A model generated the notes under the pieces. The model did no database searches. It saw only the letters and a list, made by a program, of their open reading frames with translations, and was not told where the DNA came from. Shown here in pieces: positions 1 to 5,876 of a stretch of DNA of 5,876 nucleotides. Each line of letters starts with the position of its first letter. The stretch's first letter is position 1. Origin of the DNA: a virus; IMG/VR virus record IMGVR_UViG_3300045988_022706, one strand, 5' to 3'. A program made the position numbers and the translations under genes.

Positions 1-55
1 GCAAGGTTGCTCAGTAGTCCGCTCATCATTTGCAGTGCGTTTGCGGTGTTTACGC
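1..55. repeat. Terminal redundancy: 1-55 is identical to 5822-5876 (55/55 nt). It marks circular closure of a 5821-nt genome rather than a biological terminal repeat.
   Basis: Direct comparison of the first and last 55 nt of the window shows them identical. An ORF (VP2) continues in frame across this junction. Confidence 0.95.
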
Positions 56-281
56 TGCTTTGGTTGCCGAATGTGGTAATACCTGTTGGCGTGCCGATTT
101 GTGTTGCACCGATTTGCTGCGGTGCTGTTACACTGCCTGTTGTGGTCTCGCTGCCTGTTGTGGTCTCGCTGCCTGCCTCTTGGCTGTTCTTGGCGCCGCT
201 TTGGTTACTGCTTGTTATGATGCCTGTTAACATGCTCAGTCCTTGCATGAGGTATGGCATAAAGCTTAATAATGTCTCCAT
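1..281 (-). CDS. VP2: 5' (N-terminal) part of the minor capsid / DNA pilot protein VP2. The longest ORF starts at the ATG at 279-281; alternative ATGs lie at 258-260, 246-248 and 231-233. It is continuous in frame with 5230..5850 through the circular junction, and codons at 30-55 are duplicated at 5851-5876. The full protein is about 290 aa.
   Basis: Manual minus-strand translation from 281 to 30 gives METLLSFMPYLMQGLSMLTGIITSSNQSGAKNSQEAGSETTGSETTGSVTAPQQIGATQIGTPTGITTFGNQKQRKHRNALQ, followed directly by MMSGLL... at position 29, which equals 5850. There is no stop for 84 codons in this frame. An AAGGA motif lies 6 nt upstream of the ATG at 231-233. Confidence 0.6.
   Translation of the reverse strand, partial: METLLSFMPYLMQGLSMLTGIITSSNQSGAKNSQEAGSETTTGSETTTGSVTAPQQIGATQIGTPTGITTFGNQSSVNTANALQMMSGLLSNL
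133..175. repeat. In-frame 18-bp tandem repeat of ctgcctgttgtggtctcg, about 2.4 copies, inside the VP2 N-terminal region. It encodes the Thr/Ser/Gly-rich stretch ...GSETTGSETTGS...
   Basis: Exact copies at 133-150 and 151-168 and a partial copy at 169-175, read directly from the sequence. Confidence 0.9.
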
Positions 282-309
282 TCAAAAATAGCCCCGCTTT
301 TGCGGGGCT
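282..309 (-). terminator. Rho-independent terminator on the viral strand immediately after the VP1 stop codon. The stem is AGCCCCGC/GCGGGGCT (8 bp, GC-rich) with a 4-nt loop, followed by ATTTTTGA.
   Basis: Perfect inverted repeat at 290-297 and 302-309, with loop tttt at 298-301. On the minus strand the hairpin is followed by a T5 run. The VP1 stop TAA is at 320-322, 10 nt upstream. Confidence 0.75.
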
Positions 310-319
310 TCCTCCTTTC

Positions 320-1993
320 TTAGATTCTTTCGATGCCCGGAATGCTGTAGATGGGCATTTCGCGATACCAGTCTTCCGTGAAATAGAAGTCACACAAGAA
401 TTGGTGGCTTTTTTCGCTCGTCACTGCAATTGTTCGGTCAACGTTCTGCGTTCCTTCCTGAATCCACTCCGCCGAGAGACGCGGGAGTTTGTCATAATCG
501 TCCGCATAGTGCCATGCATCCAGTGACGTCTGATAGTTAGACCGCATTTCTCCGGTTACGTAAGAAGGCTTGTAGCGGTAATCTGCCCATGCCTCTTGAT
601 AGCCAAAGATTTCGTCATCTTCTGCCGTGCCTTGTGCATAGATTTCACGATTATACACCGGCTGTTCGCCCAGTGCTGCTAGACGCGGGTCGTAGTAGGT
701 GAATCGCCCGCCACGTGTCCACTTGGTTGCAAGCCCCTGCTGGTAGCTGTGCTCTACTCGTACCACTGCCAGTCCGATGATGTAGCCGTATTCGGTTGCT
801 GCATAGTCTACCATCTGCTTGCTGCACGTGGTCAAGCTGTATGCTGCCGTATTGCCTAGTGCCTGTCCGGTTGTCGGGTCTGTTTGGCTCGTCTGGACGA
901 CTTGGTTTACATTGATTGCGATGCGCTGACCGCCGATGTACTCAGGAATTTGAAGCCTGCTGTCTGGACTTGTTACGCCCCATGTGCCGGAAAGGAACTC
1001 GCGATAGCGCGTGCCGTTGCGTGCATCTGCCTCAAAGATGTGCTGCAGTGCGATGCTCATTCGTAAATCTGCAATGCTGATTGCGCTTACTCCGCTTAGG
1101 TCTGCTGACAGAATTCCTTGTCTTCCTGTTTCTCCGTTTGCGTCCGTTCCGATAATGTTTGCGTATTGGTTCGGATTTGGCCGCGTTGTCATGTTTTGAT
1201 TGAATATGTAATTTTTATGGCTAGCTGCACTCGCTGTGTTGAAGTAGATAGATTTACTATCTGTGTATAGGTTTCCGTCTATATCCTTTAACTGTACTGG
1301 TGCATCACCCGCTAGGCTGATTTCTACAGGGTCATTTTTTAACGGCGTTGGGAGACAGGATGTGTAATAGTCGTGGAATTTTCCGGCCTTTGCCGGAAAT
1401 CGTGCGTATGCGGTCCCTTCATTTATGTTTGTCGTCAGGCTCGGTTTGTTTAAGTAGAATTCTTTGGTTGCGTTTCCGGGATTGGGTTCTTTTCCCGCGT
1501 CATCGGTTTTTTTGAACCCTACCATTAACGGTGCTTCTAGATTTTCATCTCTGAACCATTCGTTATAAATCATGGCATATGCGCGTGCCGGCAGTGCGTT
1601 TACCTTGATTTCATTTTTGATTCCGGTTGGCAGTCCGAAATAGTCTCCTAAACTGCCACTCACTAGGCCGCTTTGGCCGCCGATTTTGCAAGTCGGTGTG
1701 CTATATTCTGTCTTTTCTGCCCAGTAGTCGGTGTCATTCTCGCCGAACATGTTCTCCCAGTGTTCCCAGAGTAGACGGCATGGAACAAAGAAGAAATAGG
1801 TGTCCATGTACGCGTTATCCATGATAGGATAGATGGGTGTACTCATGCGGATAAGGCCGTTCAGGCGTACACGTGCTGTATCACCTGGAAGCACTTCGTC
1901 ACAGTAGATGGGTACCAGTTCGCCTTCGTTGATGGTCGTTAAGAGCTGGTGGCTTCGGTCAAACTTGCTTCGCGGTCTTTCCATTCGTGGCAC
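320..1993 (-). CDS. VP1: Microviridae major capsid protein VP1 (F-like). The ORF track starts at a GTG at 1991-1993; the more likely ATG start is at 1982-1984 (MERPRSKFDRSH...).
   Basis: 557-aa ORF. Its N-terminus contains the family-typical motifs FDRSH, LVPIYCDEVLPGDT, STPIYPIMDN and YFFFVPCRLLW, and its size matches gokushovirus VP1 proteins (about 530-570 aa). Confidence 0.95.
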   Translation of the reverse strand: MPRMERPRSKFDRSHQLLTTINEGELVPIYCDEVLPGDTARVRLNGLIRMSTPIYPIMDNAYMDTYFFFVPCRLLWEHWENMFGENDTDYWAEKTEYSTPTCKIGGQSGLVSGSLGDYFGLPTGIKNEIKVNALPARAYAMIYNEWFRDENLEAPLMVGFKKTDDAGKEPNPGNATKEFYLNKPSLTTNINEGTAYARFPAKAGKFHDYYTSCLPTPLKNDPVEISLAGDAPVQLKDIDGNLYTDSKSIYFNTASAASHKNYIFNQNMTTRPNPNQYANIIGTDANGETGRQGILSADLSGVSAISIADLRMSIALQHIFEADARNGTRYREFLSGTWGVTSPDSRLQIPEYIGGQRIAINVNQVVQTSQTDPTTGQALGNTAAYSLTTCSKQMVDYAATEYGYIIGLAVVRVEHSYQQGLATKWTRGGRFTYYDPRLAALGEQPVYNREIYAQGTAEDDEIFGYQEAWADYRYKPSYVTGEMRSNYQTSLDAWHYADDYDKLPRLSAEWIQEGTQNVDRTIAVTSEKSHQFLCDFYFTEDWYREMPIYSIPGIERI

Positions 1994-2009: not shown

Positions 2010-2435
2010 TCACTGTTTCGGTTCGTTGTCTTTCACCTCTTCCTTTTTTTCTTCCTCTTTCGGCTTCGGCTGTTCGGTCTGTTGCATCTGTTTCAGCTGT
2101 TCCAGCGTTTTGTCTGCAGCCTCGGCTTTTTCGTGCATCGTCATGATATCCTTCGGCAGATTTTCGAGGTCAGTTCCTTCGGTGTATACCATGCTTTTTG
2201 CTTTGATGCTGGTGTCCCCTGCTTCCAGCCGTGCGATTGCGCTTGCAAGGTCGTAGCCCTCGCCGGCTCGCTGGATTTTCTCGTATGTGTTTTCATCCGG
2301 CTGCTCGATGTAGTCGGTAGTGCCGTTCGTTTGCTTTACTGCTTTCCACGTTGGCGCGGTCTTGCTGCCCGGATTGTTCGGCACTCTCTCGGTCGGTAGT
2401 CCATAGTATCTTACCATTGCATCAGGATTTAACAT
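2010..2435 (-). CDS. Hypothetical 141-aa protein immediately upstream of VP1. It is acidic with a Lys/Glu-rich low-complexity C-terminal tail. It may be an internal scaffolding (VP3-like) or accessory protein, but this is unassigned.
   Basis: ATG start at 2433-2435 and TGA stop at 2010-2012. It is on the same strand as all other genes, overlaps the upstream ORF by 14 nt, and ends 16 nt before VP1. Confidence 0.55.
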   Translation of the reverse strand: MLNPDAMVRYYGLPTERVPNNPGSKTAPTWKAVKQTNGTTDYIEQPDENTYEKIQRAGEGYDLASAIARLEAGDTSIKAKSMVYTEGTDLENLPKDIMTMHEKAEAADKTLEQLKQMQQTEQPKPKEEEKKEEVKDNEPKQ

Positions 2436-2709
2436 TGGTTGTCTCCTTCAGGTCGATTAGCCGTGCGATGTGTTCAGGCATTGCTTCGCTCATGTAGCCG
2501 GTTTCTGTGTCGAACTCACCCAGTTCTACGAGCGAAATATCTTCGATTTCACTCGGTTTGCTTTCGTTGGCCTTCCATCGTGCCGTTCGGACTGCCTGTG
2601 CCCTGTTGTTCTGCAGAAACGGCTGAGAGTAGCCGTTGGTCAATGCATCGTGGAATGAATAGAATTTCAGTTTCATGTTTTTCCCCTTACTCTTTGTCTT
2701 TGTTTGCAT
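2422..2709 (-). CDS. Hypothetical protein, 95 aa from the ATG at 2707-2709. The more likely start is the internal ATG at 2674-2676 (84 aa, MKLKFYSF...), which is preceded by AAGGGG at a 4-nt spacing. It contains a ...SLVELGEFDTETG... segment and may be a VP3/VP5-like accessory protein, but this is unassigned.
   Basis: The ORF is in the gene-strand orientation and is packed tightly against its neighbours with overlaps. A Shine-Dalgarno-like AAGGGG lies at 2681-2686. Confidence 0.5.
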   Translation of the reverse strand: MQTKTKSKGKNMKLKFYSFHDALTNGYSQPFLQNNRAQAVRTARWKANESKPSEIEDISLVELGEFDTETGYMSEAMPEHIARLIDLKETTNVKS

Positions 2710-2803
2710 CCTTCAGTGCGTGGTAGATTTCGTCGAGCTTTTCAAGGATGTTCATCATCAGTGCAATTGCTTCCCTAACGTCCTTGACCTTGATTAATGC
2801 CAT
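2687..2803 (-). CDS. Small 38-aa ORF (MALIKVKDVREAIALMMNILEKLDEIYHALKDANKDKE). It is predicted to be helical and is not in the ORF track because of the size cut-off.
   Basis: Manual translation gives an ATG at 2801-2803 preceded by GAAGG at a 6-nt spacing. The TAA stop at 2687-2689 sits immediately before the SD and ATG of the next gene, a pattern typical of translational coupling. Confidence 0.3.
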   Translation of the reverse strand: MALIKVKDVREAIALMMNILEKLDEIYHALKDANKDKE

Positions 2804-2833: not shown

Positions 2834-2950
2834 TTACAGCCGGATGCCGCCCCGTGATACCTTCGGTCGGACGTTGATGTTTTTTACTCGCTTGGCAGTC
2901 TGAGTAAATTTTTTCTGGTCGCCATGACCCGCTCCGCTTCTGTGTGCCAT
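2834..2950 (-). CDS. Small, highly basic 38-aa ORF (MAHRSGAGHGDQKKFTQTAKRVKNINVRPKVSRGGIRL). It is a candidate J/VP8-like DNA-binding (genome-packaging) protein.
   Basis: Manual translation gives an ATG at 2948-2950, 2 nt after the peptidase stop, with a GGGGG motif 7 nt upstream and a TAA stop at 2834-2836. The protein has 6 K, 6 R and 2 H against a single D. It is the same size as the phiX174 J protein (38 aa). It is not in the ORF track because of the size cut-off. Confidence 0.4.
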   Translation of the reverse strand: MAHRSGAGHGDQKKFTQTAKRVKNINVRPKVSRGGIRL

Positions 2951-2952
2951 TT

Positions 2953-3354
2953 TTACACCCCCTTTCTGTATTTTTTCTCGGTTCGCACATCAAAGTGCAC
3001 CCAAGTGTTGTATACGATAATGCCGCATTCATCCGGGACGATTTCATTCAGTTTGTTTGCAAGTTCTTTTGCGCTCATGCCATTGACCCGGATATCTGCT
3101 GCCATACCGCACATGTGGTAGCTGTATTTTGCTCCGTTGCATTTTTTGTTCCACTCTGGTGTTCTGTATCCGCTGTTTATGTGTACTGGCTTTCCAATTT
3201 TGTTTCTTAGAATGTCAAGTATCGACACCAAGTGGTCGTCTACATAAACCACTTGTGAACCGTCTTTACATGCAAATTCTTGTACTTTAAAGTGCTGTCC
3301 TATTTTTTTGTTTGCTTCTTTGTCCATGATATAGCATTTAATCATCTTTGTCAA
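2953..3354 (-). CDS. Peptidase M15 family zinc D-Ala-D-Ala carboxypeptidase-like cell-wall hydrolase, the likely lysis enzyme. The track ORF begins at a TTG at 3352-3354; the more likely start is the ATG at 3343-3345, preceded by AAAGGAGA, giving a 130-aa protein.
   Basis: The protein carries the motifs F-KVQEFACKDG, SGYRTPEWN, HMCGMAADI and WVHFD, which are characteristic of the peptidase_M15_3 zinc-binding H/D/H triad. Confidence 0.85.
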   Translation of the reverse strand: MTKMIKCYIMDKEANKKIGQHFKVQEFACKDGSQVVYVDDHLVSILDILRNKIGKPVHINSGYRTPEWNKKCNGAKYSYHMCGMAADIRVNGMSAKELANKLNEIVPDECGIIVYNTWVHFDVRTEKKYRKGV

Positions 3355-3535
3355 TCTCCTTTTCGGTAAAACATGTTCCTACTTTGCGGACTTGGTATAA
3401 AGAGTAGATTCCTGGATTTGCTTCTGCGTATTCTTTGAATGTTTTCTTTGCTGCTTTTGGTTCTGCTGTGACTAGTCGGATGGTGGTCACTTTTCCGTTT
3501 TTTTCTAGCTTTCGGATTTCATATACGTGCATCAT
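3338..3535 (-). CDS. Hypothetical 65-aa protein, the first gene downstream of the promoter. Its stop overlaps the peptidase start in the sequence ATGATTAAATG.
   Basis: ATG start at 3533-3535 preceded by AAAGGAAGG at a spacing of about 8 nt. It is on the coding strand and immediately downstream of a consensus promoter. No recognisable domain was seen. Confidence 0.5.
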   Translation of the reverse strand: MMHVYEIRKLEKNGKVTTIRLVTAEPKAAKKTFKEYAEANPGIYSLYQVRKVGTCFTEKEIDKDD

Positions 3536-3562: not shown

Positions 3563-3591
3563 ATTTTATCATTTTTTTTAAAAAAAGTCAA
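3563..3591 (-). promoter_or_regulatory. Sigma70-type promoter on the viral strand: -35 TTGACT (3586-3591), a 17-nt spacer, and an extended -10 TGATAAAAT (-10 hexamer 3563-3568, TG at 3570-3571). It is preceded by an A8 UP-like tract (3593-3600).
   Basis: The motif was read directly on the reverse complement. The spacing and the hexamers match the consensus at 5/6 and 5/6 positions, and an extended -10 TG is present. The predicted transcription start is about 20 nt before the ATG of the 65-aa ORF. Confidence 0.6.
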
Positions 3592-3724: not shown

Positions 3725-4729
3725 TCATGCTTTTGGTTCACGCCACTTTTGCTTTAGCTTGTCTTTTTCTTTTTGAATGTTGAGATACGTTTCGTAATCT
3801 ACGCTTGTGCTCTGTTCGAGATTGACTAAACTTTGTATTGCGCTGCGTCTACGTTTGGCTCTAACCTCTCTCAGCTCGTCAGAATGTGCTCTAAAATAGC
3901 TTTCTGTGTCTTGGCTGGTATCTTTATCTAGAATCTTATCAAAATAGCGTGGAGGCCTTTTCTCGCGTCCTCCTGCGCATATGATGCTATCTGTTTTTAG
4001 GATTTCATCTTTGTGTTCGTTTAGATACTTTTCGCCGATGCCTTTTGACATGATTCTAAATTCAGGTTCTCTACCTTCCATCCAGTATTTTGCCGCTTGC
4101 TCTGCACCTATGGCTTTTTTGTTGACGTACTGTGCCACGTATGCAAAACTTCCTGGTTGTGCTGGTGAAAAGTCTATCATGCCTTTGCCCCAGATTTTTT
4201 GTAACCATTCCGACTTGAAATAGCTATTTCCTTTTTGGTTTTTATACCATTGTGCATCCGGTGGCTTTAATCCGAATACTATTGCATGATAGTGCGGTCT
4301 TTTTGTTCTGTCGCCGTATTCAGCCGCTAGGAAGTATTTTATCGGTTTCTTGTATGCTTTTCGTAGCCGTTTTATAAACAGCTGTACGTCTCGCTTATTC
4401 ACTGTCTGGCTTTGAATGCTTCTGTAGCCTTTGAGAATCTCGCCGTATGGGATGTGCTCATCATCATATGTCAGTGTTAGAAAAATCACATCGTCCCACT
4501 CTTTGGCCTCTAGCTCTATTCTGGTTGCCCATTGTTCAGCCATTTGTTTCCGGCAATATTCGCACTTACCACATGGTAACAATGCGAATTTTCCTTTTTT
4601 GATTCCGTCCATGATGTCTGCTTGCAGTCCTTGCTTGGATAGGTTTTCTAGACTTCCCCACAGTTGTGGTTTTTTCGTGTCCATCTGAAATACTAATGGT
4701 TTTGTACATGGCATTTTTGTTACCGGCAC
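3725..4729 (-). CDS. VP4: Microviridae replication initiation protein VP4 (A-like HUH rolling-circle endonuclease). The track start is a GTG at 4727-4729; an ATG at 4712-4714 is an alternative start.
   Basis: The 334-aa protein carries a C-x2-C-x2-C motif in CGKCEYC, motif I FLTLTYDD, the HUH motif PHYHAIVFG, and the double-tyrosine motif YVAQYVNKK. Confidence 0.93.
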   Translation of the reverse strand: MPVTKMPCTKPLVFQMDTKKPQLWGSLENLSKQGLQADIMDGIKKGKFALLPCGKCEYCRKQMAEQWATRIELEAKEWDDVIFLTLTYDDEHIPYGEILKGYRSIQSQTVNKRDVQLFIKRLRKAYKKPIKYFLAAEYGDRTKRPHYHAIVFGLKPPDAQWYKNQKGNSYFKSEWLQKIWGKGMIDFSPAQPGSFAYVAQYVNKKAIGAEQAAKYWMEGREPEFRIMSKGIGEKYLNEHKDEILKTDSIICAGGREKRPPRYFDKILDKDTSQDTESYFRAHSDELREVRAKRRRSAIQSLVNLEQSTSVDYETYLNIQKEKDKLKQKWREPKA

Positions 4730-4756
4730 AAGCTTCCTTGTCTATCTTGTGCCGGT
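4722..4756. promoter_or_regulatory. 11-bp perfect inverted repeat ACCGGCACAAG / CTTGTGCCGGT with a 13-nt spacer, straddling the annotated VP4 start codon. The SD-like AAGGAAG of the mRNA falls in the loop.
   Basis: 4722-4732 is the reverse complement of 4746-4756. A regulatory role in VP4 translation or transcription is inferred. Confidence 0.4.
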
Positions 4757-4790
4757 TGACACCTCGCTTTCTTTTTATATTAACTTGTTG

Positions 4791-4808
4791 TAGTAGTAGT
4801 AGTAGTAG
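4791..4808. repeat. (TAG)6 trinucleotide microsatellite, which reads (CTA)6 on the viral strand, in the region upstream of VP4.
   Basis: The sequence tagtagtagtagtagtag was read directly. Confidence 0.9.
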
Positions 4809-4977
4809 TGTTGAAAGTGTTGAAAACTCGTTTTTTTAACGTTATTACGTTTAATTATTGCCTTTTTCTATGTTGAAAACTTTGTTGAAAACTTGTTGAA
4901 TTGTTGAATGTTCGTCATTTTGACGAATTTCTTTGTGCAACTTGTTGTTGAAAACCTGTTGAAAGTGTTGAAAACTC
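4809..4977. repeat. Array of nine GTTGAA(A/T) iteron-like repeats in three clusters (starts 4810, 4819; 4872, 4884, 4895, 4903; 4947, 4958, 4967) with spacings of roughly 8-12 bp. It is bounded by a 21-bp perfect direct repeat TGTTGAAAGTGTTGAAAACTC (4809-4829 and 4957-4977). A 7-bp palindrome TTCGTCA-TTT-TGACGAA (4911-4927) sits between clusters.
   Basis: All repeat copies were located by direct reading. The near-helical phasing and A-tract content suggest protein-binding iterons and/or intrinsically curved DNA, which would fit an origin or control region. Confidence 0.8.
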
Positions 4978-5017
4978 AAGTTTTCCACATTCTCTATTTT
5001 CTGGATTATTGTTTCTT

Positions 5018-5054
5018 TGCGCGTGTGTGCACGTTTCGTGCGCGCGCGCGTATA
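5018..5054. repeat. Two strictly alternating purine-pyrimidine tracts, tgcgcgtgtgtgcacgt (5018-5034) and gtgcgcgcgcgcgtata (5038-5054, including (GC)5G). These are Z-DNA-prone and CpG-rich.
   Basis: Read directly. Both tracts are at least 17 nt of uninterrupted purine/pyrimidine alternation. Confidence 0.8.
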
Positions 5055-5115
5055 GTGATAATAGACTGTTTGCCTTACTGCAGCGGCAGCCACCCGCGTA
5101 GGGGGGCGTGACGCA

Positions 5116-5148
5116 AGGGGGGTCGCAAACCAATCTTGCGACCCCCCT
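5116..5148. other. Perfect 13-bp GC-rich hairpin AGGGGGGTCGCAA-(ACCAATC)-TTGCGACCCCCCT. A second G6 tract lies upstream at 5101-5106. It sits in the VP2 3' region and noncoding DNA, and is a candidate ssDNA structural element (complementary-strand origin, packaging signal or transcript 3' structure).
   Basis: 5116-5128 is the exact reverse complement of 5136-5148, with a 7-nt loop. The hairpin is not followed by a U-tract on either strand. Confidence 0.6.
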
Positions 5149-5229
5149 CTTCTATACATGATTTTGTTTTGGTTGCCGCTTGTCTGGTGTCCCCTGTGTT
5201 GGGGAAACCTTAGCTTTGCGCGGAAAGGG

Positions 5230-5876
5230 TTAATCTCCTTTGTACGGTTCTCCAGATTTGAACCCATCAATTAGTTTGCGTCTTCTTGCTGTCTTGTCGA
5301 TAGTATCTTTAGCTACTTTGTCAATGCCTCCTTTGGCTGCTTTACCAGCCTTTTTTACTGCGTCTTTCGCTGCTTTGCCTGCTCCTGCAAGGCCTGCGCC
5401 TAACTTGTTAGCTGCATAGCTGTACTGTTGCGCCTGTTTTGCGCTTGAGGTTGCCAGCTCGCTTGCTGCCTGTTCCCAGCTTTTCGCATTCTTAAACTGT
5501 TTTGCGCTGGTGGCCTGTTTTGCCAGCTGTAAGTATTTGTCTGCTAGCTCTGCTGTGTTGTTGCCGTATTCGTACATAGCGCTTACACTTGCAGCCTGTG
5601 CGCTCTGCTGGTTATAACGTTGGTTTCCAATGCTTGCTGATGCTCCGCTTGTTGACGCTGTTGCACCGTTGGTTGCTGCCAGAATAGGATTGATTCCCGC
5701 TGCAATCATGTCCTTCACGGTATCTTGATACGCTGTCCCGCGCATTTCCTTCTGAAATGCTCGTTCCGCTGCTGCTTCTGCGCTGTTGTACTTCTTGGCG
5801 CTTGCTTGGCTTCCAGCATTTGCAAGGTTGCTCAGTAGTCCGCTCATCATTTGCAGTGCGTTTGCGGTGTTTACGC
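5230..5876 (-). CDS. VP2: Minor capsid / DNA pilot protein VP2: the C-terminal 206 aa plus 26 nt of upstream in-frame sequence. The ORF continues past the window end into positions 56-281 through circular closure.
   Basis: The conserved pilot-protein block ...AAAERAFQKEMRGTAYQDTVKDMIAAGINPILA... is present, together with Gly/Ala/Lys-rich low-complexity repeats such as AGKAAKDAVKKAGKAAKGG. These features, and the gene's position after VP1, are typical of microvirus VP2. Confidence 0.85.
   Translation of the reverse strand, partial: VNTANALQMMSGLLSNLANAGSQASAKKYNSAEAAAERAFQKEMRGTAYQDTVKDMIAAGINPILAATNGATASTSGASASIGNQRYNQQSAQAASVSAMYEYGNNTAELADKYLQLAKQATSAKQFKNAKSWEQAASELATSSAKQAQQYSYAANKLGAGLAGAGKAAKDAVKKAGKAAKGGIDKVAKDTIDKTARRRKLIDGFKSGEPYKGD

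What the first reader, a model, noticed from the sequence alone, without database searches (positions are those of the whole stretch)
2953..3354. Enzymatic (peptidase M15) lysis module in a microvirus, with no holin or signal peptide
phiX174-type microviruses lyse by single-protein inhibition of MraY (protein E). This genome instead encodes a zinc D-Ala-D-Ala carboxypeptidase / L-Ala-D-Glu peptidase-like M15 domain (EFACKDG ... SGYR ... HxxxxxxD ... H). No transmembrane holin-like ORF or secretion signal is evident anywhere in the 5.8-kb genome. How the enzyme reaches the peptidoglycan is therefore an open question. The 65-aa ORF that is overlap-coupled to it is the only candidate partner.
Basis: partly seen in the sequence, partly recalled or inferred. 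Interest (0 to 1): 0.55.

Follow-up and report, generated by a model that had tools for sequence, protein, structure and literature searches.

The report
Holin-less M15 endolysin in gut microvirus
This small gut ssDNA phage carries a cell-wall-cutting zinc peptidase taken from tailed-phage lysis cassettes without the membrane-pore partner; the feature is real but was first described in 2012, and how the enzyme reaches the wall is still unknown.

Summary
Window 2953..3345 (minus strand; the ATG at 3345 is the likelier start, not the TTG at 3354) encodes a 130-aa Peptidase_M15_3 protein (Pfam E=1.2e-21; PHROG "endolysin" 3e-39). R61, H77, D84, H117 and D119 are invariant in 110 relatives, and dN/dS is about 0.15.

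The window is a complete circular 5,821-nt gokushovirus. No frame of the coding strand contains a transmembrane-grade hydrophobic stretch except the VP2 N-terminus. The same holds across 61 related genomes. So "no holin, no signal peptide" is confirmed.

The 65-aa ORF is not a dedicated partner. Its family fills the upstream slot in about 40% of relatives. At least 12 unrelated small hydrophilic ORF families, or nothing, fill that slot elsewhere. A fragment also occurs in an M15-less virus. It is a soluble ββαβ protein of unknown function.

The nearest non-microviral homologues are endolysins of Faecalibacterium and temperate tailed phages. They sit beside holins or are fused to GH25, lysozyme, SH3 or PG-binding domains. 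This points to action on the sacculus.

M15 peptidases in gokushoviruses were reported by Roux et al. 2012 and Kirchberger et al. 2022, and this exact protein is already in nr. The feature is already known and of low to moderate interest; the open question is how the enzyme gets access.

The parts
2953..3345 (-). M15 zinc peptidoglycan peptidase gene (130 aa, endolysin type).
   Evidence: Pfam PF08291 E=1.2e-21, full length. PHROG 894 endolysin, 3.4e-39. R61, H77, D84, H117 and D119 are invariant in 110 homologues. dN/dS is 0.15. The AF2 model's top Foldseek hits are 1LBU, VanY, VanXYc, LdcB, RB49 peptidase and LysECD7.
3356..3361 (-). Shine-Dalgarno AAGGAG serving the ATG at 3345 (10-nt spacer).
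   Evidence: Read directly from the sequence.
3338..3535 (-). 65-aa ORF (o65). It overlaps the M15 start by 8 nt (ATGATTAA). It is a soluble ββαβ protein of unknown function and a variable accessory gene, not a conserved M15 partner.
   Evidence: No Pfam, PHROG or NCBIfam hit. 52 homologues, all on contigs of about 6 kb or less. AF2 pLDDT 89.4. No significant structural match except its own family. dN/dS 0.22. Occupies the upstream slot in 40/99 relatives.
3563..3591 (-). Sigma-70-type promoter-like site, TTGACT-17-TAAAAT with a TG extended -10, upstream of the o65-M15 pair.
   Evidence: Scan result, 10/12 matches with TG. The same pattern lies within 450 nt upstream of M15 in 66 of 102 relatives, against 0.115 per 450 nt genome-wide. 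It sits at about -247 when an upstream ORF is present and about -50 when not.
2834..2950 (-). 38-aa very basic ORF (b38, pI 12), immediately downstream of M15. A core small gene of this virus group, probably the VP8/J-like DNA-binding protein. A neighbour, not shown to be part of lysis.
   Evidence: Present in nearly all relatives, including M15-less ones. PHROG 10695, 7e-7. dN/dS 0.13.
2687..2803 (-). 38-aa acidic amphipathic-helix ORF (a38). A core small gene always next to b38, with M15 inserted on either side of the pair in different lineages. Function unknown.
   Evidence: Found in 89 of 121 loci by tblastn and in M15-less genomes. Hydrophobic moment 0.55, pI 5.7. dN/dS 0.095. Gene arrangements.

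Best explanation
The gene encodes a small, soluble, single-domain zinc peptidase of the M15/LAS family that cuts peptide stems or cross-links of the host's peptidoglycan. It is an endolysin.

It was captured from the lysis cassettes of tailed dsDNA phages without the accompanying holin. It sits in the variable region between the replication gene VP4 and the small core genes, behind its own sigma-70-type promoter. It is translationally coupled to whichever small accessory ORF lies upstream; here that is the 65-aa ORF.

The enzyme is made in the cytoplasm late in infection and helps break the wall to release virions.

Shown: the family assignment, intact catalytic residues, purifying selection, fixation in the whole clade, and the absence of any holin, signal or SAR sequence.

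Inferred: that it acts on the sacculus (from the domain fusions and holin neighbours of its closest relatives). Also inferred: that it reaches the wall only after the membrane or wall is compromised by something else. M15-less sister viruses with the same core genes must also exit cells, so that trigger is most likely a core viral function still unidentified in gokushoviruses. M15 would then act as an accelerator or finisher of lysis. The bond it cuts and the host (possibly a Clostridia-type Firmicute) are not established.
For: - Family assignment: Pfam, PHROG and NCBIfam hits.
- Invariant R61, H77, D84, H117 and D119 in 110 sequences, with dN/dS 0.15.
- Only significant PDB sequence relative: 1LBU, a zinc DD-peptidase (E=2.8e-8).
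- The top-ranked Foldseek PDB hits (about 30) all have the LAS / hedgehog-DD-peptidase fold.
- Every relative with VP1 >=65% identity carries an M15 gene.
- Two different M15 alleles (about 40% identical) are inserted on opposite sides of the b38-a38 pair in viruses whose VP4 is 96-97% identical. This indicates repeated acquisition and retention.
- The closest non-microviral homologues are endolysins. In Faecalibacterium phage FP_oengus the homologue (42% identical) is followed by a TM protein and a holin.
- 50%-identity cluster representatives at 44-51% identity are fused to GH25, phage lysozyme, SH3_3, PG_binding_1 or NAGPA domains. One sits in a temperate tailed-phage fragment.
- No hydrophobic ORF on the coding strand, in the window or in 61 relatives.
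- The promoter is conserved in position relative to the cassette.
- M15-less relatives share the core genes.
- Literature: a lysis role was proposed in PMC3394797 and PMC9239249. Muralytic activity was shown for a microvirus hydrolase in PMC11980548 (phage Ebor Gp7).
Against: - No activity data exist for this protein or its clade.
- The route across the cytoplasmic membrane is unexplained.
- Transmembrane prediction here rests on Kyte-Doolittle windows only.
- The host is unknown. The genome-contig scan found only a free contig binned in a MAG. The one apparent link to a Clostridia-like contig looks chimeric.
- The AF2 model is of moderate quality (pLDDT 73.6) and Foldseek E-values are weak (>=3e-3).
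- Ebor Gp7 was matched by its authors to a different PDB entry (6SSC), so it may not be the same family.
Confidence: 0.6

Rival explanations
1. Enzymatic 'protein antibiotic'. The peptidase never leaves the cytoplasm. It destroys soluble wall precursors (UDP-MurNAc-pentapeptide or D-Ala-D-Ala), as VanX and VanXY do. This blocks wall synthesis so that growing cells burst, as with phiX174 E, and no holin is needed.
For: - No holin, signal or SAR domain in the window or in more than 100 relatives.
- The only significant PDB sequence relative is a muramoyl-pentapeptide DD-carboxypeptidase.
- VanY and VanXYc are among the structural hits.
- From established knowledge: the M15 clan includes cytoplasmic precursor-cleaving enzymes.
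Against: - The nearest homologues are endolysins next to holins.
- Others are fused to sacculus-binding or sacculus-cutting domains: GH25, lysozyme, SH3_3, PG_binding_1. This ties the subfamily to mature peptidoglycan.
- The best NCBIfam match is the periplasmic endopeptidase MepK.
Confidence: 0.08
2. One reading: the overlap-coupled 65-aa ORF is the functional partner that delivers or activates the peptidase. The analogue would be the small chaperone Gp1 that assists export of mycobacteriophage Ms6 LysA.
For: - It lies immediately upstream, with an 8-nt start/stop overlap and a shared promoter.
- It is under purifying selection, dN/dS 0.22.
- It is confidently folded, pLDDT 89.4.
Against: - Its family occupies the upstream slot in only 40/99 relatives, and 28/115 by tblastn.
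- At least 12 unrelated ORF families, or none, occupy the same slot.
- A fragment is present in an M15-less virus.
- It has no hydrophobic segment.
- It has no structural match to any known export or lysis factor. The weak best matches are small phage inhibitor proteins (Dmd, p56).
Confidence: 0.07
3. A core, non-holin viral protein provides membrane access. Candidates are the conserved 38-aa amphipathic peptide a38, which flanks M15 in every arrangement, or the moderately hydrophobic N-terminus of the pilot protein VP2. M15 then finishes the wall.
For: - a38 is a strongly amphipathic helix (hydrophobic moment 0.55).
- It is the most constrained small ORF, dN/dS 0.095.
- It is adjacent to M15 in three different gene orders.
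- It is also present in M15-less relatives, which must also lyse.
- The VP2 N-terminus is the only hydrophobic stretch in the genome.
Against: - a38 is acidic (pI 5.7), has no TM-grade stretch (KD 1.04) and has a heptad-like pattern typical of coiled coils.
- Its adjacency may only reflect the insertion hot spot.
- VP2 is a virion protein with an established role in entry.
- There is no direct evidence for either candidate.
Confidence: 0.12
4. The peptidase serves entry rather than exit. A few copies travel with the virion and open the wall locally for genome delivery.
For: Ebor Gp7 was detected in trace amounts in virions (PMC11980548). From established knowledge: virion-associated lysins are common in other phages.
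Against: - The closest relatives are endolysins in lysis cassettes, not virion proteins.
- M15-less relatives have the same capsid and pilot genes.
- The gene lies in the accessory region behind its own promoter, away from the structural genes.
Confidence: 0.05
5. A holin is hidden on the complementary strand, where many hydrophobic ORFs appear.
For: The plus strand carries many ORFs with KD19 above 1.6. Roux et al. noted one complementary-strand ORF next to a microviral peptidase (PMC3394797).
Against: - The coding strand is 36.8% A and 16.9% T, so the antisense strand is A-poor (few stop codons) and T-rich (hydrophobic codons).
- There are about 29 antisense ORFs of >=40 aa per genome, and all three antisense frames stay 'open' across relatives. 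This is a compositional artefact.
- Known microvirus genes are all on one strand (established knowledge).
Confidence: 0.03

Closest known systems
M15_3 peptidases of human and animal gut Gokushovirinae (Roux et al. 2012, PMC3394797; GenBank KX513876 'peptidase M15', MG945xxx 'similar to peptidase')
   Same: Same gene in the same genomic slot. Protein identity is 60-78% to more than 20 GenBank gokushoviruses and 72-85% to 58 IMG/VR genomes. The exact protein is already in nr as 'MAG TPA: peptidase [Microviridae sp.]'. The horizontal origin, Faecalibacterium affinity and proposed lysis role are all published.
   Different: Nothing essential. Added here: clade-wide fixation, two alleles on either side of the b38-a38 pair, a conserved promoter, and evidence that the upstream ORF is a variable accessory gene.
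Single-domain M15 endolysins of Faecalibacterium tailed phages (FP_oengus, FP_Toutatis, Lelie) and modular GH25/lysozyme/SH3/PG_binding+M15 endolysins of temperate phages
   Same: 42-51% identity across the whole domain, with the same catalytic residues and about the same size.
   Different: These sit in cassettes with TM proteins or holins, or carry wall-binding or second catalytic domains. The microviral version is the bare catalytic domain with no membrane partner, and it lacks a 7-residue loop.
Streptomyces albus G zinc D-Ala-D-Ala carboxypeptidase (PDB 1LBU, MEROPS M15A)
   Same: The only solved structure detectable by sequence (E=2.8e-8) and the top structural hit. It shares the SxxR ... 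H-x6-D core.
   Different: 1LBU is a secreted 213-aa enzyme with an extra N-terminal PG-binding domain. Only about 46 residues align by sequence. Bond specificity cannot be transferred.
Peptidoglycan hydrolases of cultured microviruses (Ebor Gp7, PMC11980548; roseophage and Rhizobium microvirus M15/'lys' genes, PMC11499846 and PMC9512667)
   Same: ssDNA microviruses that carry a small wall hydrolase as an accessory gene. Muralytic activity was shown experimentally for Ebor Gp7.
   Different: They belong to different subfamilies and infect Alphaproteobacteria. Ebor also encodes a 45-aa predicted membrane protein (Gp1), which this genome lacks. Whether Gp7 is homologous to this M15 was not tested here.
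phiX174 protein E (single-gene lysis, MraY inhibition)
   Same: Also a microvirus with no holin-endolysin pair.
   Different: E is a small overprinted membrane protein with no enzymatic activity. No hydrophobic overprinted frame exists in this genome.

Membership tests
Peptidase M15 / LAS metallopeptidases (Pfam PF08291 Peptidase_M15_3) | Profile match above the curated threshold over the whole domain | tested here: met
   77.3 bits against a cut-off of 23.2, E=1.2e-21, profile positions 2-108/108. PHROG 894, 3.4e-39.
Peptidase M15 / LAS metallopeptidases (Pfam PF08291 Peptidase_M15_3) | Zinc ligands H-x6-D plus a C-terminal His, and the conserved Arg of the SxxR motif | tested here: met
   H77, D84, H117 (plus D119) and R61 are invariant in 110 microviral sequences and in the Faecalibacterium phage endolysins.
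Peptidase M15 / LAS metallopeptidases (Pfam PF08291 Peptidase_M15_3) | Hedgehog/DD-peptidase (LAS) fold | tested here: met
   AF2 model: pLDDT 73.6, pTM 0.71. The top-ranked Foldseek PDB hits (about 30) are all of this fold: 1LBU, hedgehog N-domains, VanY, VanXYc, LdcB, RB49 peptidase, LysECD7. Scores are weak, however (best E=3.4e-3, TM 0.39-0.47).
Peptidase M15 / LAS metallopeptidases (Pfam PF08291 Peptidase_M15_3) | Zinc-dependent cleavage of peptidoglycan peptides, and bond specificity | not testable with these tools
   Needs a zymogram and muropeptide LC-MS.
Canonical holin-endolysin lysis cassette | A small protein with at least one transmembrane helix encoded with the endolysin | tested here: not met
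   No coding-strand window with KD19 >=1.3 except the VP2 N-terminus. No conserved hydrophobic ORF in 61 relatives. All ORF families upstream of M15 are hydrophilic, max KD <=1.39.
Signal-peptide or SAR endolysins (holin-independent export) | N-terminal hydrophobic signal or signal-anchor-release segment | tested here: not met
   The N-terminus MIKCYIMDKEANKKIGQH is polar. Max KD19 in the whole protein is 0.74. The same N-terminus is seen in the aligned homologues. SignalP/DeepTMHMM were not available.
phiX174 E-type single-gene lysis proteins | A small overprinted membrane protein with an N-terminal TM helix | tested here: not met
   The stop-to-stop scan of all three coding-strand frames finds no such segment.
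Chaperone-assisted endolysin export (Ms6 Gp1-LysA type), with the 65-aa ORF as chaperone | A small gene immediately upstream of, and overlapping, the lysin gene | tested here: met
   8-nt overlap, ATGATTAA, at 3338-3345.
Chaperone-assisted endolysin export (Ms6 Gp1-LysA type), with the 65-aa ORF as chaperone | Consistent co-occurrence of the small gene with the lysin | tested here: not met
   40/99 upstream slots. 28/115 M15-bearing loci. Present in the M15-less L126.
Peptidoglycan L,D-endopeptidase MepK (NCBIfam NF053624) | Score above the equivalog cut-off | tested here: not met
   41.1 bits against a cut-off of 185. A homologous domain only.
Gokushovirinae-type microvirus (genomic context) | VP1, VP2, VP3, VP4 and VP5 on one strand of a circular genome of about 4.5-6 kb | tested here: met
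   Phage_F 2e-146, Chlamy_scaf, Phage_ORF5 and the Rep domain. Full-length VP2 across the junction matches PHROG 18604 at 2.4e-130. 55-nt terminal repeat. GenBank relatives are classified as Gokushovirinae.

The most novel reading that the evidence does not exclude
The peptidase needs no membrane partner because it works from inside the cell. It would be a cytoplasmic M15 enzyme that hydrolyses soluble wall precursors (UDP-MurNAc-pentapeptide or D-Ala-D-Ala) and thereby blocks wall synthesis. That would be an enzymatic counterpart of the single-gene 'protein antibiotics' of phiX174 and the ssRNA phages, and it would explain the holin-less M15 genes found across many microvirus families.
Probability: 0.08. 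Interest if true: 0.75.

Novelty: already known. Interest (0 to 1): 0.22.

Why it matters
How gokushoviruses, and the many other microviruses without protein E, lyse their hosts is unknown. A soluble endolysin fixed in a whole gut clade with no holin is a clean system for asking that question. It could also hint that some gut gokushoviruses infect Gram-positive Clostridia.

The feature itself has been in the literature since 2012, and this exact genome is already deposited and annotated. The value here is confirmation plus some comparative detail:
- the 65-aa ORF is ruled out as an obligatory partner;
- M15 is fixed in the clade, with two alleles in two insertion sites;
- domain fusions in relatives argue for action on the sacculus.

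It is not a discovery.

Tried and rejected
1. Antisense holin. The plus-strand ORFs are hydrophobic and stay open in relatives, but in all three frames at once. The cause is a 16.9% T / 36.8% A coding strand. Rejected as a compositional artefact.

2. Host from a 29-kb contig (L121). It carries a 94%-identical M15 next to spore-germination, trigger-factor and glgB genes. The junction falls inside the o65 homologue and inside a truncated glgB, at the contig end. Judged a chimeric assembly and not used for host inference.

3. Prophage or host search with VP1 in 185,579 species genomes. The only hit was one free 5.7-kb contig binned into a 'Bacteroides sp.' MAG. Uninformative.

4. a38 as an M15-specific partner. 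Rejected because M15-less gokushoviruses (KT264799, MG945423, MG945157, MG945391) carry a38 and b38.

5. Function of o65 from structure. The model is confident, but no significant PDB or BFVD match exists beyond its own family.

6. My guess that the GH25+M15 fusion P0178 (contigs of about 6 kb or less) was microviral. It was wrong: it lies in a temperate tailed-phage fragment with CI-like repressors.

7. Rfam scan of the whole window: no match.

8. The second promoter-like site, TTGACA-17-TATCAT at 3354..3326. It would start transcription inside M15. The total number of promoter-like sites is not above the shuffles (9 against 6.4±2.2). Treated as chance.

Full report
**What the window is.** The 5,876-base window begins and ends with the same 55 bases. 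It is therefore a circular contig of 5,821 nt with an assembler overlap.

All recognisable genes lie on the minus strand. In order they are:
- VP4 replication initiator (4729..3725);
- a 34-aa ORF;
- the 65-aa ORF (3535..3338);
- the M15 peptidase;
- two 38-aa ORFs (2950..2834 and 2803..2687);
- VP5 (2709..2422);
- VP3 scaffold (2435..2010);
- VP1 capsid (1993..320);
- VP2 pilot protein, 290 aa, which crosses the junction (281..1 joined to 5821..5230).

The full-length VP2 matches PHROG 18604 end to end at E=2.4e-130, which confirms the circularisation. Close GenBank relatives are classified as Gokushovirinae from human, pig and monkey faeces.

**Checking the observation.** The ORF at 2953..3354 matches Pfam Peptidase_M15_3 over the entire model (E=1.2e-21, 77 bits against a cut-off of 23). 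It also matches PHROG 894 'endolysin' at 3.4e-39. The quoted motifs are present: EFACKDG 23-29, SGYR 58-61, H77-x6-D84 and WVHFD 115-119.

The TTG at 3354 is only 1 nt from the Shine-Dalgarno AAGGAG. The ATG at 3345 is 10 nt from it and overlaps the stop of the 65-aa ORF as ATGATTAA. Public gene calls also give 130 aa. The gene is therefore 2953..3345.

In an alignment of 110 homologues from related genomes, R61, H77, D84, H117 and D119 are invariant. Median dN/dS among 297 pairs is 0.15. The only solved structure detectable by sequence is the Streptomyces albus zinc DD-peptidase 1LBU (E=2.8e-8 with a profile). An AlphaFold model (pLDDT 73.6) has as its top-ranked Foldseek hits (about 30) only LAS/hedgehog-DD-peptidase folds: 1LBU, VanY, VanXYc, LdcB, RB49 L-Ala-D-Glu peptidase and LysECD7. 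The scores are weak, however.

**No holin, no signal.** On the coding strand I scanned all three frames from stop to stop, ignoring start codons. Only one 19-residue window reaches a mean Kyte-Doolittle value of 1.3. It is the VP2 N-terminus, at 1.42. The peptidase peaks at 0.74 and starts with a polar sequence.

Across 61 related genomes, the only recurrent hydrophobic segment is again the VP2 N-terminus.

The plus strand is full of hydrophobic ORFs. The coding strand is 36.8% A and 16.9% T, so its complement is poor in stop codons and rich in hydrophobic codons. There are about 29 antisense ORFs of >=40 aa per genome, and all three antisense frames stay open across relatives. This is a compositional artefact, not evidence of genes.

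**The 65-aa ORF is not a dedicated partner.** I collected 58 genomes through the peptidase and 60 more through VP1 from IMG/VR, plus GenBank records.
- By tblastn, all 115 loci with a detectable close or moderately related capsid carry M15, but only 28 carry the 65-aa ORF.
- I clustered whatever ORF ends at the M15 start. The 65-aa family fills the slot in 40 of 99 genomes. A different core gene (a38) fills it in 22. At least 12 unrelated small hydrophilic ORF families fill it in others. In 17 genomes there is nothing.
- A fragment of the family occurs in KT264799, which has no M15.
- The large protein database holds 52 homologues of the 65-aa ORF against 1,602 for M15.

The protein is real (dN/dS 0.22). 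It folds confidently into a β-hairpin, helix, β-strand unit (pLDDT 89.4). Apart from its own family, it has no significant structural relative. The weak best matches are small phage inhibitor proteins such as Dmd and p56. I read it as one of many interchangeable accessory genes at a hot spot.

**What travels with M15.** A sigma-70-type promoter (TTGACT-17-TAAAAT with an extended -10 TG, 3591..3563) precedes the 65-aa ORF. The pattern TTGACN-16..18-TANNNT lies within 450 nt upstream of M15 in 66 of 102 relatives, against a genome-wide density of 0.115 per 450 nt. It sits at about -247 when an upstream ORF is present and at about -50 when not. The cassette therefore has its own promoter. Together with strong Shine-Dalgarno sites, this argues against a Bacteroidota host but does not separate Firmicutes from Proteobacteria.

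The two 38-aa ORFs downstream are core genes under strong constraint (dN/dS 0.13 and 0.095). One (b38) is very basic (pI 12). The other (a38) is an acidic amphipathic helix. Both occur in M15-less gokushoviruses of 5.2-5.4 kb, so they are not M15-specific.

**Evolution of the gene.** M15 is fixed in this clade.
- Viruses whose VP4 is 96-97% identical to the window's can carry an M15 allele only 39-42% identical, inserted after the b38-a38 pair instead of before it.
- A second lineage with only about 40% VP1 identity shares the window-type M15 at 75-83%.

This is repeated acquisition, replacement and exchange. Kirchberger et al. described the same phenomenon for microviral peptidases (PMC9239249).

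**What it most likely does.** The closest non-microviral relatives are endolysins.
- In Faecalibacterium phage FP_oengus, a 138-aa single-domain homologue (42% identical) is followed by a TM protein and an annotated holin.
- Among representatives of 50%-identity clusters, the nearest (44-51% identical) are fused to GH25 muramidase, phage lysozyme, SH3_3, PG_binding_1 or NAGPA domains.
- One of these lies in a temperate tailed-phage fragment.

These fusions tie the subfamily to the mature sacculus.

I therefore favour an endolysin captured without its holin. It would be made in the cytoplasm and reach the wall only after some other late event damages the membrane or wall. M15-less sisters share every core gene and must also exit cells, so that trigger is probably a core function not yet identified in gokushoviruses. 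This last step is inference. Bond specificity and host remain unknown.

Host searches gave nothing usable. One hit was a free contig binned in a MAG. The other was a 29-kb contig whose junction with Clostridia-like genes cuts through both flanking genes and looks chimeric.

**Rivals.**
- Cytoplasmic cleavage of wall precursors would remove the need for a holin and is the most novel reading. The domain fusions and holin neighbours of relatives argue against it (about 0.08).
- A core non-holin permeabiliser (a38 or the VP2 N-terminus) is possible but unsupported (about 0.12).
- The 65-aa ORF as chaperone is unlikely given its distribution (about 0.07).
- An entry role (about 0.05) and an antisense holin (about 0.03) are minor.

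**Comparison with what is known.**
- Roux et al. 2012 reported M15_3 peptidase genes in five gut Gokushovirinae and six Alpavirinae. They described horizontal origin and affinity to Faecalibacterium, noted an adjacent unknown ORF in 5 of 11 genomes, and proposed a role in lysis and possibly Gram-positive hosts (PMC3394797).
- Kirchberger et al. 2022 list peptidases as lysis-associated accessory genes across many microvirus families.
- Cultured roseophage and Rhizobium microviruses carry such genes.
- Ebor Gp7 has been shown to degrade peptidoglycan (PMC11980548).
- The exact protein of this window is in nr as 'MAG TPA: peptidase [Microviridae sp.]' on a 5,876-nt contig.

**Verdict.** The finding is correct but already known. 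What remains open, and is not solvable from sequence, is how a signal-less endolysin reaches the wall without a holin.

Noticed in passing
window 1-55 and 5822-5876: An identical 55-nt direct repeat at both ends, i.e. an assembler overlap of a circular 5,821-nt genome. The VP2 gene (290 aa) spans the junction and is missed by linear ORF calling.
   Followed up: yes
window 4730-5230 (minus strand non-coding region between VP2 and VP4): Nine copies of TTCAACA are clustered in 4809-4972, against 1.1 expected in the whole window. There is also a perfect 13-bp GC-rich hairpin at 5116-5148, an alternating CG/CA tract at about 5030-5057 and a (TAC)n run at about 4787-4806. These may be iterons or an origin/regulatory region. 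Related genomes show similar short repeats there.
   Followed up: partly
window 2687-2803 and 2834-2950 (minus strand): Two 38-aa ORFs: an acidic amphipathic helix and a very basic J/VP8-like peptide. They are conserved in about 90-120 related genomes under strong purifying selection (dN/dS 0.095 and 0.13). They are unannotated in most of the GenBank relatives whose hit rows were listed. Both also occur in M15-less gokushoviruses.
   Followed up: partly
L061, L110, L113 compared with the window: Viruses with 96-97% identical VP4 carry a different M15 allele (39-42% identity), inserted downstream of the b38-a38 pair instead of upstream. A distant lineage (VP1 about 40% identical) shares the window-type M15 at 75-83%. 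This is cassette-like replacement and exchange of the peptidase.
   Followed up: partly
slot immediately upstream of M15 in 99 related loci: At least 13 unrelated families of small hydrophilic ORFs (35-90 aa) alternate in the same position behind a conserved sigma-70-type promoter. This is an accessory-gene hot spot. The functions are unknown and anti-defence or host-takeover roles are conceivable.
   Followed up: partly
L121 9885-10419 (ENA ERZ1742712 NODE_713, 29,218 nt): A 94%-identical M15 plus half of an o65 homologue is joined in frame to a truncated glgB, at the end of a contig carrying spore-germination, Asp/Glu racemase and trigger-factor genes. It looks like a chimeric assembly rather than an integration. 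If real, it would point to a Clostridia host.
   Followed up: partly
L065 (IMGVR_UViG_3300045988_004182, 10.7 kb): The contig appears to concatenate two different microviruses, one of the window's lineage and one of the distant lineage B. It is probably an assembly chimera through the shared M15/a38 region.
   Followed up: no
L058 96-1907 (6,683-nt relative): An extra 603-aa ORF with no Pfam match and one hydrophobic stretch, in an unusually large relative.
   Followed up: partly
window 290-309 (minus strand): A strong intrinsic-terminator-like hairpin, AGCCCCGC-AAAA-GCGGGGCT followed by a T run. It lies just after the VP1 stop and before the VP2 start.
   Followed up: no
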